Of a stretch of 61,365 bases of DNA, positions 24,001 to 33,000 are shown in pieces. The position numbers are program-made. The DNA comes from Elusimicrobiota bacterium (GTDB lineage Bacteria; Elusimicrobiota; Elusimicrobia; UBA1565): positions 1 through 61,365 of the forward strand of contig JBDRPD010000093.1 of NCBI GenBank assembly GCA_043827405.1, given 5' to 3'. Each line of letters begins with the position of its first letter. Position 1 is the first letter of the stretch.

Positions 24001-27000
24001 CGCGCCTTCAAGAAGCTCGGGGCTTAGAGGCTCTCCGCCAATACTTCGGCGATAACCCGGTTGCCTGCCGCTGAGTAGTGCTTCTGCGGAGTGAAAAGAG
24101 AATCCAGGGAAGTGCTTTCGGATCGGCGCAGCAGTTTTTCGGTAGGGTCAATGACATGGAAATCCTTCTTGAGCTTCTTCAGCAAGGCCGCATAGTCGAG
24201 CGGCTTTCCGCGGCGCGCGGCAGCTAATTGGTCCCGTCGCGGGATGTGGAGAATCCAAAACCGGGCGCCCGCTTCCTCCGCTTCACGCCGGAAGCTGTCG
24301 ATGATGCGCAGTGCGAGACGGGCGGGTTCGGTGTCGGGCGGGTAGAAATTTCGTCCCGCCTTTCGCGGGGTGCGGGTTTCCCTGGCGAGAGCGGTCAGAA
24401 AAAAGGCGGTGAGCCGGCTCTTGAGCCAGAAGCTGTCGGCGTAATCGGCGGGATCGTAGAACGCTTCATGGGCGGCCAACGGGGAATGTGGAAGCGTCGC
24501 TATCACCGCGGCCAGCTCGTGCGGAGAGGGCGTCGGCGAGTTAACCAGTTCTAGAGCGCCGTCTTTTAGGATGAAGCGGGGTTTTGACAAGTGGATGCTG
24601 GACCGGTAGTAGTAGAACCTGCGAAACATGTTCTGGCATCGTTTAATGTTCTCCGCCTGAAAGCCGAGGACGACGACTTTGGGAGAGATTTGATTCTTGA
24701 TCGATCGCCACCTCAGGTATGCCTGGTCGATCCCATACCCGGAGTAGCCGAGGTTCAAAACCCGGATACCGCTTCGGCTGCGTTCGAGGATGGCGGAGAA
24801 AGTGTCGTCGTATTGGACGTCGTCGCCGTGGACGTAGGAATCTCCAAAGACCGCGACGGTTATGCCGCTGGTGGAAATCCGCGGCGGGCTCAGCGGCGTT
24901 TTTGTCCGGATGCCCTGTGCGTCATAGGCATAAAACCCATACATGAACCGGCTCTCGGGCCGCGGGGACCAGCCGAGAAGGGGGTCGTATTGGGTGGTTA
25001 TGGTTATGTCGGTCGTCGAGAGCTTCTTCATGGCCGCCGCCGTCGATTTGACCGGCAGGCGATAGGGCCTGAGCTGGACGGAGCGGATGGAGAAATTGCC
25101 GTCGATGTCGGTGCCGCCGAAAAGACGCATTCCCGCCTCCAGGGCGAGGAGGCAGAGGAGCGAGGAGATCAGGACGAGGTGCCTTCTTTTCATGCGCCAT
25201 GGCATTATAGCGCTAATGCGATATTCATCAAGGCGCTGTTTAGGGCCGAAGTTGTAGAATTCCGCTATGGGTGAGATCGCACCGTTGGCCGTCGCGGACT
25301 TCCGTCTGCGCGCCCTGTATCCCAATCTGCGCGACTTGTTCAACAGCTTCGGCGACAGGCGCGCGCGGGGAAAGAAGAAGAGCAAGGCGCTCGGCTACTT
25401 TCCGCCGATCGCCGAGTACCGTCTGCGTCACGACGCGCCGGGGCGTGACCGCGTGCTGGAACTGCGCGACGTCGATGTCCCGCTGCTGATGAACACTTCG
25501 CATGACCGCGGCAAGCGCTATATGTCGTGCCTGCTCGAGGCGCGCAAAGGAAATGCCGGCGCGCGCGCCGAGATTGATAATCTGGTCAACGAATTTTTCG
25601 CGACCCTGGAGCAGCGCTATTGGGGCGCCCCCGTCTTCGCCGACCGGCATGTCGTGCCCTCGATGTGCGAGGGGCCGTCCTCGACCGATATCGTCAGCCA
25701 CAAGGGTTCGATCCTGCTTAAGCTCAGCCGCCAGGGCTACCCGGTGCCGGACTTCGTGGTCCTAACCTCCAACGTCTATCTCGACCGCAAGAAGGACTTC
25801 GCGCGGCATACCTGCCGCGCGCTGTCGGATCTGGAACGGCTCACCGGGCAGCGCTTCGGCTCGTCTAATAATCCTATCGTCGTGGCTGTCCGCTGCGCGA
25901 TGCCGCGCTACTATCCGGGCCTGATGCCGACCTATTTGAACGCCGGCGTGATTGAGAGCACTCTGCCTCCCTTGTCGCGGCTGTTCGGCGAGAAGGCGGC
26001 GTGCCGGATGTATCTCAATAACCTGCGCAACCTCCTCGGGAGTTTTATCAGCGGCGAGGATTTTAAGACCGAGGCGGCGGTCTCGAGCGATCTGCCGCTG
26101 GAAGATCTGAAGGAGCTGGTCGCCAACTTTCGGGAGCGCGTCGCGCGTTTTGACCGGAGGCTGCTGGAGGACGCCGTCTACCAGGTGCAGTTTCTCGCCG
26201 ATCAGGCGTACCGGCAGTACGACGCCCACGCGGACCTGATCAGTACTTTGTCCCGGGGAGAGAAGCATTATCCCTCCTTGATCCTGCAGAAGATGGTATG
26301 CACGGTACGCGACGACGCCTCCTATGCCGGCGTGCTGATCAGCCGTGACGCGAAAAGCGGCAGCGGGCGTCACCTTGAGATCGGCCGCAATATTTTCGGC
26401 GAGGATATTATGACGGGGACCATCCCCACGCAGCAGATTCGCTACGGCTCTGCCGAGGAGATCAAGTCCTCCTTCCCCGCCGTCTATCATTTTTCGCCGG
26501 CGCTCGATGAGCTCGAGCGGGAGTTCGAGGGGCCGGTGACCGTTGAGTTCGCGGCGGAGGGAACGCGCGGGCATGAGCTCTTCGCTATGCTGCAGCTTAA
26601 CGATACGGGCATGACGGGGCAGGCCGCGTTTATCTCCACGGTGGATATGCACAAATCCGGGATCATATCGCGCAAACGCCTGACCCAGCTGATCCTTCCC
26701 TATCACATAAAGCAGCTGCAGGGCGACGCGATCGATGAGAGTTCCTTTGCGACGCTCGAGCGCTTCTCGCAAGGCGTCTCCATTTTGCCGCGCTCCGCCG
26801 TCTGCGCGCAAATTTACTTTTCGGCCGAGGCGGCGCTCGGCGCCAAGAAGCGCGGCGAACGGGTTTGCTTCTGCAAGAAGAGCTTTACTCCCGCCGATGC
26901 CGTGGTTATGCGCGAAGTCGACGCCATCGTCAGCCTTAATTCGGCGGCTATCCACGTGGTGGCCATCTGTCAGAGCTTCGGCACCCCGGCGCTGCTGAAT

Positions 27001-30000: not shown

Positions 30001-33000
30001 TTCCCTGATTCTTTGGCGACGCCGGGGAAGGCGCCGTAGGGAATAGTGCAGAACATCTTTAGATACCACAGCCAGCGCGCGGCGGTTCCGCCCGCGAGGC
30101 GCTCGTTCGCGGGGCCGAGGAGGTCCGGCCGGAGATTGTTGGTGCGGACGGCGGCGAGGTAGTGGCCCATTTCGTGGAGCGCGATATTGGCGTGCCAGGC
30201 GGCGTACCACATTACGGTTGAAAGGAGCAGTTCGATGCTGAAGAACATCTCGCGCAGCACGTCGGTCCGGGAGGCGATATGCTCGGAGATGCTGATCAGC
30301 GAGGTGAGAAACGCCGCGTGGAATGAAACGAGCTTGTGGTTGGCGATGATCCAGCCGCGGTCGAGGCGGCTGTGCGGCGTGTTTTTAGGCAGCGAAAAAG
30401 GTGGAAATCTCATGTCTAGAATCGTAGCAGAAAGGCGGGGGGGGGCAATAGGGCCGCTGGGCGCAGAAAATCCCCAGGCGCAATAATAAGATAAAATCGC
30501 GGCTTCTATGAATCCGATCCGATGCGTGTTCTGGGCGGCGGCGTTCGCTCTCGGCGTGCAGGTTCCGGCCGTGCACGCCGCCGCTGCGAAAAGCGATGTG
30601 GCCCGGCGCATCGAGTCCCGCATCCAATCGGGACAGAATGTGTTCTTTGTCGCGCCGTTGGAGGGCGCGGTCTACCCCGCCAGGTTTTCTCCGCCGACGT
30701 TTAGCTGGGAGGTTTTCGCCGACGCGTTGGGCAAGGAGCGCGGCGCCGGGCTCGGCTCCTGGCGCTTGACCATCTCCGAAGAAGGGAAGGTCCTGCACGA
30801 GGAGTCGATCTCCGGGCCTCCGCGATGGACTCCGCCGCGCAAGCTGTGGGAAATCTGGACAGGAAAGAAGCTGGAAGCGGAGGTGGGCAATGAGGTGAAC
30901 CGCGCCATCCCCGTTCACTTCGGTATTGATCATCAGCCCCTTCCCGACGACGCGCTGTTTCGGTATATCGGGCTGGCCGAAGGCGCTGCGCGGCCCTATC
31001 AGCCGCCGCAGAGTTTGGTGTGGATGGATCCTGTCGCGAGCAAGTGCGAGGATGTCATCCGGATGGGCAGCCGTTGGCCGTTCCGCTGCGCCGGCTGTCA
31101 TGCGACGCACTCCCCGTCGGGTCTTTGGTCTTTCGTCGACTACCGTTTCGACAGGAAGCGCTCCTATCGCCGCAGCGTCGAGATCGCCGGGGCCGACGAT
31201 TCCGGACGGCCCGTAACGAGAATCCTGGACCCGGCCGGCGAGCTGGGCGGCCTGCGCTATTCCTTTTCCGGGGAGAAAAGCGCGCTCTTTATGTACCGGC
31301 CGCGGGGCACGGCGCCCGAGCCGTATCCCAAGGCTTACACCTTCATTAAGCCGCGGGGATACAAGCTGCATGCGGAGGCCTTCAATAAGCGCTATGTGTC
31401 GCCCTTCTGGGATATCGTGATCGCGGACCGTGCGACCGGGGAACTGGTCCCTCTTAAGGGCGCCGCCGACGCCGCTGCCGTCGAGACCTTTCCGAGTTGG
31501 TCCGCGGACGATAAGCGGGTGGCTTTCGTGCGCAATGAAGGGATGGGAAAGATGGATATCTACACGGTTGAATACAACGGCGGCAAGGGCGGGCAAGCGC
31601 AGCCTTTGGCCGGGGCCAGCGGCAACGGCAGCGACAACTATTTCCCGGAGTTCTCACCCGATGGGCGCTGGCTCGCATTTACCCGGGGGAACGCTTCCGG
31701 CGGACCGTTCGCCCGCGACAGCAGCGATATCTATATCGTTCCGGCCGCCGGGGGGCGGGCCCGCCGCCTGGAGTCGAATGTCGAGGGCGTCATGGACTCC
31801 TGGCACAGCTGGTCGAGCGACAGCCGCTGGCTTCTCTACAGCTCGAAGCGTGACGGGCTGGCTACTCGGGCCTATATTACGAGGATAGACGAGCGGGGCG
31901 GCGCCTCGGCTCCGGTGGAGCTTGGCTGCGAGCAAGGGGTGAACGCCCGGGTCAATATGCCCCAGTGGATAAAGAAGGGGCGTCCGCCTGCGTTCTCAGA
32001 CGACGAACTGGACGAACTGCAGCGCCGGAATCCGTGAGAATGCGGCGCCGACGCTCGCCTTGTGCGCTTCAGGGCTGCGGCGGCGTGCGGCGCCGAGTCC
32101 AGAGAGACATGGCCAGCCCCAGGGCCAGCATCAGGAGCCCCGAGGGGAAAAATACCAGCATGATGATGGTGCCCTTCATGCCGATATCGCTCTGGTCTCC
32201 CGGATGCGCGAGGAGCATGCCCAGCAGCAGCGGCCCCACAACGCCGGCGGCGAGCAGCGCGCCTCCTGCGCGCATGAACCATCTCGGCCGGTCCTTAGCG
32301 AACAGGATTCCGGCGACTACGGCCAGGCTCGCGATAATTAACGGCGGACCCAGCACGTTGATTATGCCGTTGATCATTCTCTCGCTCACCCTATAGGATG
32401 GCCGGTCGTCGGCGATTAGTCAAGGCGGCGCCGTTTTACCCCGGCGCCTCCTAATTTAGCCATAATAAGACGGTGAACATCCTGTCCCGGAACGAGGAGC
32501 AGACGCTGGCGTTCGCGGCCAAGCTGGCAAAGGCAGTGAAGCCGGGCGTCATCTGCCTCAGCGGACCGCTGGGCGCGGGTAAGACGACGTTTGTGCGCGG
32601 CTTTCTGCGCGGCCTCGGCTACCGGGGCGCCGTGCGCAGCCCGACTTTCGCCCTGGTCCATGAATACCCGCGGGTAAAGCCGCGCGTTTATCACCTCGAC
32701 CTCTACCGCATCGAGGATTCCGGCGAGCTCGACGGCATGGGGCTTGAGGACTGCCTCTCGGACGTCGGCGCCGTCAGCCTCATCGAGTGGCCGGAGATCG
32801 CCGCCGGCCGCTTGCCCGCCCGGCGCGTGGATATCTCCTTCGCGCACGCGCGCGGCGGCGGCCGCTCCCTGCGGCTGCGCCGGAGGCGGCGGTGAATATC
32901 CTCGCGATCGACACCTGCGGCGAAGGGCTGTCGCTGGCGGTCGGAGGAGCCGGGCGCCGCTGCCGGCAGCGGCGGCTGCGGACCCGAAAGGCCGATGAGC

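What a model noticed while it worked through the whole genome (the two positions that open the first line are those of the whole stretch)
25267..30413. Circularly permuted enolase fused to a site-2 (M50) membrane protease domain
g03254 (819 aa) has an N-terminal HExxH membrane domain of site-2-protease type, then the enolase barrel (276-565), and the enolase capping domain moved to the C-terminus (583-790). All enolase catalytic and metal residues are kept. It defines a highly conserved, undescribed family and faces a truncated PPDK-like gene (g03253) that is also its neighbour in other phyla.
Evidence so far: PDB search: barrel matches enolase 136-408, C-terminal part matches enolase residues 8-125; own enolase 4-130 aligns to residues 585-783, E 7e-8. 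Model: 277-539 to enolase Z 16.1, 582-790 to enolase-superfamily N-domains Z 10.8, 21-208 to M. jannaschii S2P Z 6.9. Catalytic H/E/D/K/SHRS and HEMGH invariant in 30 aligned homologs. 896 proteins at E<=1e-150, best 120 at 70-78% identity over 96-100% of length, including Terriglobales. PPDK-like partner adjacent in 2 of 4 loci, a normal enolase near the other 2. A canonical enolase also exists in this genome. Searches 133, 140 list nothing relevant.
(Added by a program. Inside this text positions count along the whole contig: contig position 1 is position 1 of the stretch shown here. "Call 12" and the like, gene names such as g00115 and contig names such as C1 are that model's own, and its searches are not shown. 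The text may have been shortened before it was handed on; [...] marks where a part breaks off. The agent that wrote the report below was given it as the finding of a first reader that could run no searches.)

Follow-up and report, generated by a model that had tools for sequence, protein, structure and literature searches.

The report
Membrane-anchored rearranged enolase with kinase partner
This gene encodes a glycolytic enzyme (enolase) whose two halves are in swapped order and joined to a membrane domain resembling a zinc protease, paired with a truncated phosphate-transfer enzyme; the design recurs in many uncultured bacteria, looks undescribed, and may link sugar metabolism to signalling at the membrane.

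Summary
Confirmed. Window 27954-30413(-) encodes 819 aa: an M50-like membrane domain, the enolase barrel, then the enolase cap. Enolase catalytic residues and putative zinc ligands (H80, H84, D206, catalytic E81) are kept in 381-383 of 383 aligned rows. The convergent neighbour (896 aa) is PPDK-derived, lacks the PEP barrel and has an altered ATP site. The pairing is stronger than first reported: 50 of 54 close dikinase loci, always convergent; a second subfamily is fused to a different barrel-less dikinase. In 18 of 31 WOR-3 relatives the permuted form is the only enolase found, so enolase activity is likely. In Acidobacteriota relatives both genes carry a CRP-type box (28 of 40 upstream regions, 0.4 expected); the window lacks it. 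M50 membership is partial: below Pfam's cut-off, no NxxP motif. Best guess (0.4): an active membrane-tethered enolase that gates an intramembrane protease by 2-PG/PEP occupancy, with a VadK-like histidine kinase partner; the gating is inferred only. No description found in the literature searches; the scan found this family before on other DNA.

The parts
27954..30413 (-). Gene for the 819-aa M50-like / circularly permuted enolase fusion (P0001)
29769..30365 (-). M50-like membrane domain, aa 17-215: four long hydrophobic helices (19-38, 60-90, 148-179, 182-205), beta hairpin 132-141, AAGP 152-155; first helix nearly invariant with H26 and H32
30162..30176 (-). HEMGH zinc motif (H80, E81, H84)
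   Evidence: 382, 381, 382 of 383 rows
29796..29798 (-). D206, candidate third zinc ligand (ADPG, aligns with LDG of site-2 proteases)
   Evidence: (382 of 383 rows)
28704..29606 (-). Enolase barrel, aa 270-570, with H288, E300, E343, D387, E443, D470, K495, SHRS 522-525, K546
28044..28667 (-). Enolase cap domain moved to the C-terminus, aa 583-790, with lid serine S623
28365..28511 (-). About 48-aa insert (aa 635-683) directly after the lid-serine motif; absent from the basal members P0269 and P0281
25267..27957 (+). Gene for the 896-aa PPDK-derived protein without PEP barrel (P0002)
25267..25671 (+). N-terminal extension of P0002, aa 1-135, no family assigned
25672..26751 (+). ATP-grasp domain, aa 136-495; K146, R209, E427, Q443 kept; PPDK D321 and R337 positions are T425 and N445
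26752..27141 (+). Phosphohistidine swivel domain, aa 496-625; H563 invariant, PPDK TSH motif changed to A(I/V)H
27142..27954 (+). All-helical C-terminal domain, aa 626-896, in place of the PEP barrel; invariant polar residues H716, R759, E784, K790, Y791, E800, K832
25255..25260 (+). -10-like hexamer TAGAAT 6 nt before the dikinase ATG (likely leaderless transcript; the same placement is seen in many relatives)
30421..30426 (-). -10-like hexamer TACGAT 7 nt before the fusion ATG (possible leaderless transcript)
   Evidence: read from the sequence, not tested further

Best explanation
A carbon-flux sensing module at the membrane. P0001 is a working enolase (2-PG to PEP) held on the cytoplasmic face of the membrane by a zinc-binding, site-2-protease-like domain. 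Moving the cap to the C-terminus puts the barrel directly behind the helix that carries the third zinc ligand, so substrate-driven lid closure could switch the protease, much as a CBS domain sits under SpoIVFB; the protease would cut a still unknown membrane substrate. P0002 is a histidine-relay phosphotransferase of the VadK/RPH type that feeds ATP status into this module, by phosphorylating or binding it or its metabolite. Shown: architecture, conservation of both active sites, gene linkage, shared regulatory box in one lineage. Inferred with good support: enolase activity (about 0.85), membrane location and zinc binding (about 0.8), functional link of the two genes (about 0.7). Inferred weakly: proteolysis (about 0.55) and its gating by the enolase (about 0.4).
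For: Enolase catalytic and metal residues kept in 382-383 of 383 rows (roles from PMC4667285 passages). Only enolase found in 18 of 31 WOR-3 relatives, which have PGK (10 of 12 searched) and full PPDK (16 of 16 searched). H80, E81, H84, D206 kept in 381-382 of 383 rows, including all 11 WOR-3 rows; a mere anchor would not need the catalytic Glu. The two domains never part: 35 of 35 long M50-domain hits are followed by the barrel and 426 of 429 permuted hits have the M50 domain, the other 3 being cut by locus ends. A canonical enolase is also present in 21 of 21 subfamily-1 genomes and 46 of 50 subfamily-2 genomes, which fits an added role. Barrel-less dikinases accompany it in three layouts: convergent neighbour (50 of 54 loci), C-terminal fusion (111 of the best 120 long hits) and N-terminal fusion (P0281). 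CRP-type boxes lie before both genes in Acidobacteriota; the same box lies before nuoB, nuoC, citrate synthase, transketolase and Usp genes. Precedent: VadK, a barrel-less PPDK that autophosphorylates and binds metabolic enzymes (PMC13400623).
Against: No conserved third gene that could be the protease substrate. The NxxP motif and the Asn after AGP of site-2 proteases are missing and the Pfam score is under cut-off. The fusion occurs without a PPDK-type barrel-less partner in WOR-3 and without one within the fetched flanks in Dehalococcoidia; the dikinase clade B occurs without the fusion in 17 of 17 genomes. P0002 has lost the PPDK D321, R337 and T453 positions, so its kinase activity is uncertain. 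The window itself has no CRP box (best match 3 mismatches), and the box is absent from subfamily 2 (0 of 70) and clade B (0 of 17). The loci with the box are nearly all Terriglobia, so they are not independent. No activity or expression data.
Confidence: 0.4

Rival explanations
1. A metabolic side route, not a signal: the enolase is simply tethered to the membrane, and the partner is a substrate-specific dikinase of the RPH/GWD kind whose helical domain binds a small acceptor (for example glycerate, giving 2-PG) that the enolase then turns into PEP. The zinc site is structural or does unrelated housekeeping.
For: The helical C-terminal domain of P0002 has invariant polar residues in both clades, like the second active site of RPH (PMC4844700 passages). 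The fused dikinases keep the full PPDK ATP-site and TSH motifs. Co-regulation with carbon and energy genes. The fusion can be the only enolase found.
Against: Does not explain why E81 is kept in 381 of 383 rows. The three partner types share no detectable acceptor domain (hhalign probability under 1%). No transporter or pathway gene travels with the pair.
Confidence: 0.3
2. Two loosely linked accessory genes. The fusion is a membrane enolase with a housekeeping peptidase domain, the dikinase has its own target, and they stay together in one lineage because they were transferred as a block and share regulation.
For: Each occurs without the other. Convergent orientation means separate transcripts. 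Insertions of 1-7 kb between them occur. Patchy spread: 2 of 301 genomes of the phylum, 3 of 40 close relatives.
Against: A different barrel-less dikinase is fused into the same chain in subfamily 2 across many phyla, and a third type in P0281. Orientation is kept in all 50 linked loci.
Confidence: 0.15
3. A split PPDK: the enolase barrel stands in for the missing PEP/pyruvate barrel, and the phosphohistidine domain hands phosphate directly to pyruvate (or takes it from PEP) in the enolase site, channelling pyruvate to 2-PG.
For: Every partner lacks exactly the PEP barrel; enolase binds PEP.
Against: The cap with lid serine S623, which closes over the phosphate in enolase, is kept. The partners carry their own helical domains. 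Canonical PPDK is present in the window's genome and in all 8 locus genomes searched.
Confidence: 0.08
4. An anti-phage or conflict system that reads PEP or ATP imbalance and triggers membrane proteolysis.
For: Two-gene, patchy, horizontally spread cassette; the module also sits inside giant polyproteins.
Against: No PADLOC family for P0001 or P0002; no defence neighbours recur; high sequence conservation; CRP-type co-regulation with respiration genes; sole enolase in WOR-3.
Confidence: 0.04

Closest known systems
Canonical enolase (EC 4.2.1.11; TIGR01060; Pfam Enolase_N + Enolase_C; PDB 9no2, 4a3r, 5boe)
   Same: Both domains, about 33-38% barrel identity, all catalytic and Mg-binding residues, lid serine.
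   Different: Domain order reversed; membrane domain in front; two inserts in the cap; motifs DSRGNPT, SHRSGETED and RSER read TNAGIPT, SHRSKSPNE and NTER (their role at the dimer face is recalled); own clade, 100/100 support, and adjacent canonical enolases are no closer to it.
Site-2 proteases, MEROPS M50 (RseP, MjS2P, SpoIVFB; closest here the short PDZ-less, CBS-less S2Ps of about 214 aa)
   Same: HExxH in a hydrophobic helix, following beta hairpin, AGP motif, Asp aligned with LDG (hhalign 88.6-89.6%, E down to 2e-7); ESM Atlas nearest clusters are M50 at 0.91. SpoIVFB has a cytoplasmic CBS domain under the membrane part (PMC11486902 passages).
   Different: No NxxP; an extra nearly invariant first helix with H26/H32; attached domain is a whole enzyme; no substrate known.
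VadK of mycobacteria (Rv1127c, PRK05878 family; PMC13400623)
   Same: PPDK ATP-grasp plus phosphohistidine domain without the PEP barrel; P0002 matches NF004531 at E 2e-28; encoded beside metabolic enzymes.
   Different: P0002 is 896 aa with extra N-terminal and helical C-terminal domains, changed ATP-site residues, scores far below the family cut-off (99 vs 456 bits); its neighbour is the enolase fusion.
Pyruvate phosphate dikinase (TIGR01828; PDB 1vbg, 1kbl) and substrate-specific relatives RPH (5hv1) and HpeI (9goj)
   Same: ATP-grasp and swivel His domains: Z 26.6 to 1vbg (rmsd 10.4, 492 aligned), Z 17.6 to the RPH ATP domain 5hv6 (rmsd 3.0, 223 aligned), Z 16.2 to 2fm4 (rmsd 2.2, 126 aligned).
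   Different: No PEP barrel; helical domain follows the His domain rather than preceding it as in RPH; D321, R337, T453 positions changed.
Giant Omnitrophota polyproteins (bioRxiv 10.1101/2023.11.21.568195; 10.64898/2026.06.07.730766)
   Same: They tile sugar-metabolism enzymes, PPDK_N domains and membrane helices; the M50-enolase unit lies inside unnamed proteins of 2000-6000 aa.
   Different: The passages I read do not mention a permuted or membrane enolase; the taxon of the giant carriers was not given.

Membership tests
Enolase (TIGR01060) | Enolase barrel and cap domain both present | tested here: met
Enolase (TIGR01060) | Catalytic and Mg ligands (H, E, E, D, E, D, K, HRS, K, lid S) | tested here: met
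   382-383 of 383 rows
Enolase (TIGR01060) | Cap domain N-terminal to the barrel; score above the 300-bit cut-off | tested here: not met
   cap follows barrel; 237.7 bits
Enolase (TIGR01060) | Canonical dimer surface | tested here: inconclusive
   three motifs changed family-wide; their interface role is recalled; no dimer model was run
Enolase (TIGR01060) | 2-PG dehydratase activity | not testable with these tools
   indirect only: sole enolase found in 18 of 31 WOR-3 relatives
Site-2 protease (M50) | HExxH in a membrane helix | tested here: met
   HEMGH 80-84 in helix 60-90; definition from PMC12067869 passages
Site-2 protease (M50) | Third zinc ligand Asp (LDG) | tested here: inconclusive
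   D206 in ADPG aligns with LDG and is kept in 382 of 383 rows; geometry not measured
Site-2 protease (M50) | NxxP before the Asp | tested here: not met
   D201 and no Pro; compared with 29 S2Ps that were picked by this motif
Site-2 protease (M50) | Re-entrant beta hairpin and AGP motif after HExxH | tested here: met
   strands 132-135 and 138-141 in the model, AAGP 152-155
Site-2 protease (M50) | Three or more transmembrane helices | tested here: inconclusive
   family-mean hydropathy peaks 1.3, 1.3, 2.0, 1.6; no topology predictor run
Site-2 protease (M50) | Pfam PF02163 gathering score 27.2 | tested here: not met
   24.6 and 26.5 bits; 13 of 26 members match at E<=0.01; one close relative scored 28.1
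Site-2 protease (M50) | Fold match to a solved S2P | tested here: inconclusive
   whole-protein searches listed only barrel matches; domain not folded alone
Site-2 protease (M50) | Intramembrane proteolysis | not testable with these tools
   no substrate identified
PPDK (TIGR01828), for P0002 | ATP-grasp plus phosphohistidine domain | tested here: met
   H563 invariant in 53 rows
PPDK (TIGR01828), for P0002 | C-terminal PEP/pyruvate barrel | tested here: not met
   all-helical domain instead; 126 bits vs cut-off 843
PPDK (TIGR01828), for P0002 | ATP-site residues K22, R92, D321, E323, Q335, R337 and TSH motif (roles of D321, E323, Q335, R337, T453 recalled) | tested here: not met
   K, R, E, Q and H kept; D321, R337 and T453 replaced
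VadK-type regulatory dikinase, for P0002 | PPDK-derived, barrel-less, His kept | tested here: met
VadK-type regulatory dikinase, for P0002 | ATP- and Mg-dependent His autophosphorylation; binding to the neighbouring enzyme | not testable with these tools
   needs purified protein

The most novel reading that the evidence does not exclude
A new kind of signalling system in which a glycolytic enzyme is itself the sensor domain of an intramembrane protease: the permuted enolase reports 2-PG/PEP flux to the zinc site, a PPDK-derived histidine kinase adds ATP status, and the whole unit has in some lineages replaced the ordinary enolase.
Probability: 0.3. Interest if true: 0.92.

Novelty: new variant of a known kind. 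Interest (0 to 1): 0.76.

Why it matters
I know of no natural circularly permuted or membrane-integral enolase (recalled; searches listed none). Here such a form is spread over many phyla of uncultured bacteria (256 matching stretches in GTDB genomes for one subfamily) and is the only enolase found in a WOR-3 clade, where it falls below the TIGR01060 cut-off and would be scored as a missing glycolytic step. If the zinc site cuts, it would be a direct link from central carbon flux to regulated intramembrane proteolysis. The soluble part, the zinc site and the phosphohistidine can each be tested with standard assays.

Tried and rejected
Complex prediction of P0001 246-802 with P0002 488-896: no answer, score 0.00, neither for nor against binding. 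PADLOC: nothing for P0001 or P0002; a weak BrxB hit (E 3e-4) inside the enolase cap of P0127 is taken as chance. No solved sequence matches the M50-like domain, alone or as a 26-row profile, at E<=10. Fold searches of whole models did not test the M50-like domain or the two unknown P0002 domains; ESM Atlas gave only sub-0.9 leads for the helical domain (His-domain-associated proteins 0.84-0.87, Rph_4th 0.78). Homology between the P0002 helical domain, the 620-aa middle region of the fusions and the P0281 tail: not detected. One origin of the partner dikinases: neither shown nor rejected (p-AU 0.16). Origin of the permutation by recent tandem duplication of the adjacent enolase: rejected, adjacent canonical copies group with other canonical enolases. 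Coupled loss of the protease and enolase sites: seen in P0276 and the first copy of P0286, not in P0282, too few cases. FNR and Rex boxes: no enrichment. Matching distance matrices of the 41 pairs (Mantel r 0.92) show shared descent only. GC and GC3 of both genes match the host genes, so no recent transfer is shown. Residue names for the PPDK ATP site were not found in PMC5371819 or by search.

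
Full report
1. Observation. They sit among housekeeping genes (by their translations folP, glmM, pdxJ, glmS, acpS, nnrD on the left; tsaE, tsaB, ispE, glmU on the right; names mostly recalled from sequence) and have host-like GC and GC3. Pfam gives Peptidase_M50 at 77-229 (under cut-off), Enolase_C at 276-564 and Enolase_N at 685-783. Profile alignment to canonical enolases places the whole cap at 583-790 (99.6%, E 5e-23) with two inserts, and the barrel at 270-570 (100%, E 1e-65). 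The permutation is real and not an assembly artefact: the best 120 of 953 hits have the same length and 70-78% identity. The genome (97.97% complete) also has a canonical enolase and a canonical PPDK. It is placed in Elusimicrobiota from a same-family relative.

2. The enolase part is probably active. In 383 distinct aligned rows (proteins and loci, not dereplicated by genome, so some genomes count twice; units under 700 or over 950 aa were dropped), the residues that bind PEP and Mg in solved enolase (PMC4667285, passages) are kept in 382-383. Usually the gene is an extra copy: a canonical-type enolase is also found in 21 of 21 genomes with this subfamily and above cut-off in 46 of 50 genomes with the second subfamily (50 of 80 loci given). 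But among 31 relatives of a WOR-3 carrier, 18 have only permuted-type matches, 9 only canonical, 3 both and 1 none. I read the gene directly for 9 of those 18; one (G134) is in fragments. These genomes have PGK (10 of 12 searched) and full PPDK (16 of 16 searched), so lower glycolysis is there and incompleteness alone is an unlikely cause; completeness figures were not given and the genomes are kin. This evidence comes from the second subfamily, not the window's own. In the 3 genomes with both, the permuted gene lies just upstream of the canonical one. Permuted barrels form one clade (100/100) and adjacent canonical genes are not closer to it (30 rows).

3. The membrane domain is a divergent M50 relative. 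It aligns with short site-2 proteases through HExxH, a PYG/PFG segment, AGP and an Asp at the LDG position (hhalign 88.6% local, 89.6% global). The nearest ESM Atlas clusters are M50 (0.91). The model has four long helices and a hairpin after the HExxH helix, as described for S2Ps (PMC12067869 and PMC11486902, passages). Against full membership: no NxxP, score under the Pfam cut-off, no solved-sequence match, and modest hydropathy of the first two helices. H80, E81, H84 and D206 are kept in 381-382 of 383 rows, and H26, H32 and H74 nearly so. A search of 1.84 billion representatives with this domain gave 110 hits; all 35 long proteins examined have the barrel next. By analogy with RseP topology the enolase would face the cytoplasm (inference).

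4. The partner. P0002 has the PPDK ATP-grasp and His domains (Z 26.6 to 1vbg), a 135-aa extension and a helical domain instead of the PEP barrel. K146, R209, E427, Q443 and H563 are invariant in 53 rows; the equivalents of K146 and R209 are needed in RPH (PMC4844700, passages). The D321, R337 and T453 positions of PPDK are changed (their importance is recalled). Of 71 loci, 54 form a closer clade: 50 have the fusion facing the gene, 3 end too soon and 1 truly lacks it nearby. The other 17 (Bacteroidota, Cloacimonadota and others) lack it in the locus and in the genome. No third gene travels with the pair. A second subfamily (about 46% identical) is a roughly 2040-aa chain: M50-like, barrel, cap, about 620 aa of unknown middle region, ATP-grasp, His domain; 111 of the best 120 long hits carry PPDK_N or PEP-utilizers, with intact PPDK motifs, in Planctomycetota, Acidobacteriota, Gammaproteobacteria, Myxococcota and more. 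P0281 has a third dikinase type in front. The three share no detectable extra domain, and a single origin is undecided. Positions conserved only in the linked clade are most frequent in the helical domain (21 of 92 conserved positions, against 16 of 119 and 3 of 54), a hint at an interface that is confounded by the clade's narrower taxonomy.

5. Regulation. Upstream of the fusion gene, 28 of 40 regions hold TGTGA-N6-TCACA with at most one mismatch (0.40 expected from shuffles); upstream of the dikinase 13 of 41 (0.23 expected), 28 of 41 with at most two (3.5 expected). Several lie 21-23 nt before a -10 hexamer, the class II CRP position (recalled). The motif is real genome-wide in these Terriglobia (23 vs 2 and 24 vs 0 control matches) and lies before nuoB, nuoC, citrate synthase, transketolase, cytochrome c, hemA-region, Usp and Fe-S oxidoreductase genes (51 of 100 candidate ORFs scanned, chosen by eye). 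This explains how two convergent genes can be co-expressed and points to carbon and energy metabolism. It is lineage-specific: absent from the window, from subfamily 2 (0 of 70) and from clade B (0 of 17).

6. Mechanism. Both active sites of P0001 are under selection together and the protein is mostly an extra enolase, so I favour a sensing role: active enolase gating an S2P-type protease, with P0002 as a VadK-like His kinase. VadK is a barrel-less PPDK that autophosphorylates and binds neighbouring metabolic enzymes (PMC13400623: abstract, passages, sections 9 and 16). Confidence is 0.4: no substrate is visible and the partner is dispensable in some lineages. The main rival (0.3) is a tethered metabolic route in which the dikinase phosphorylates a small acceptor.

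7. Novelty. Searches for enolase with circular permutation, site-2 protease, membrane anchoring, dikinase or Acidobacteria listed nothing; the library lacks most subscription papers. Two preprints on giant Omnitrophota proteins (passages only) mention glycolytic and PPDK_N domains but not this unit; their supplements were not seen and may list such domains. Earlier notes of this scan describe the family on other DNA; they gave me the leads on fusions and on sole-enolase genomes, which I tested. Not in those notes as shown to me: the linked versus orphan dikinase clades, the changed ATP site of the window's partner, the CRP-type boxes and the VadK precedent. Each part belongs to a known kind, the combination does not; with function unproven I rate it a new variant, interest 0.76.

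Noticed in passing
L007, L008, L010, L012, L015, L016, L030, L031, L035, L036, L044, L047, L049, L061, L069, L071, L073: Orphan clade of the barrel-less dikinase (38-43% identical to P0002) in Bacteroidota, Cloacimonadota, Chlorobiota, Clostridia and others, with no fusion in the genome and no conserved neighbour; its target is unknown.
   Followed up: partly
P0260 (6041 aa), P0351, P0353: The M50-enolase unit lies in a giant polyprotein punctuated by 19 ERGA repeats (16 continue as RGAV) that look like processing sites; by eye it also holds a sugar-isomerase-like and an FAD/NAD oxidoreductase-like region.
   Followed up: partly
P0276, P0286, P0314, P0324, P0282, P0305: Degenerate and tandem copies: some have lost the HExxH Glu and the enolase catalytic residues together, others only one site.
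   Followed up: partly
L176:10118-15118 (P0123), P0122, P0124, P0125: Tandem duplications of the unit in one chain with near-identical repeats; may be assembly artefacts.
   Followed up: no
L276-L330 (G070, G072, G075): A CRP-type regulon in Terriglobia with 23-24 perfect sites per genome, before respiration and carbon genes; one search listed no paper on it.
   Followed up: partly
L266-L273, L196: In most WOR-3 loci read, the fusion is followed on the same strand by a conserved membrane-protein gene of about 557 aa and an endonuclease III-like gene (named from sequence); a possible operon partner or protease substrate in that lineage.
   Followed up: no
L244:2617-5001 (G041:C102) and L243 (G006:C64): Further atypical PPDK relatives: one with a long N-terminal addition in a 1380-aa frame that branches next to the fused dikinases, one PPDK in two frames.
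   Followed up: no
G000:C3, C30, C50 and relatives: Several M50 matches lie in open frames of 700-2900 aa in this family of genomes, suggesting other long S2P fusions.
   Followed up: no
window 24024-25193(-) and 30508-32037(+): Flanking genes transcribed away from the pair: an SGNH/GDSL-like hydrolase and a PD40 beta-propeller protein; neither recurs in related loci.
   Followed up: partly
L001:12695-14026, L002:16518-17891, L176:20739-22043: Canonical enolase genes close to the fusion in three unrelated phyla, in L002 amid Usp and antiporter genes.
   Followed up: partly
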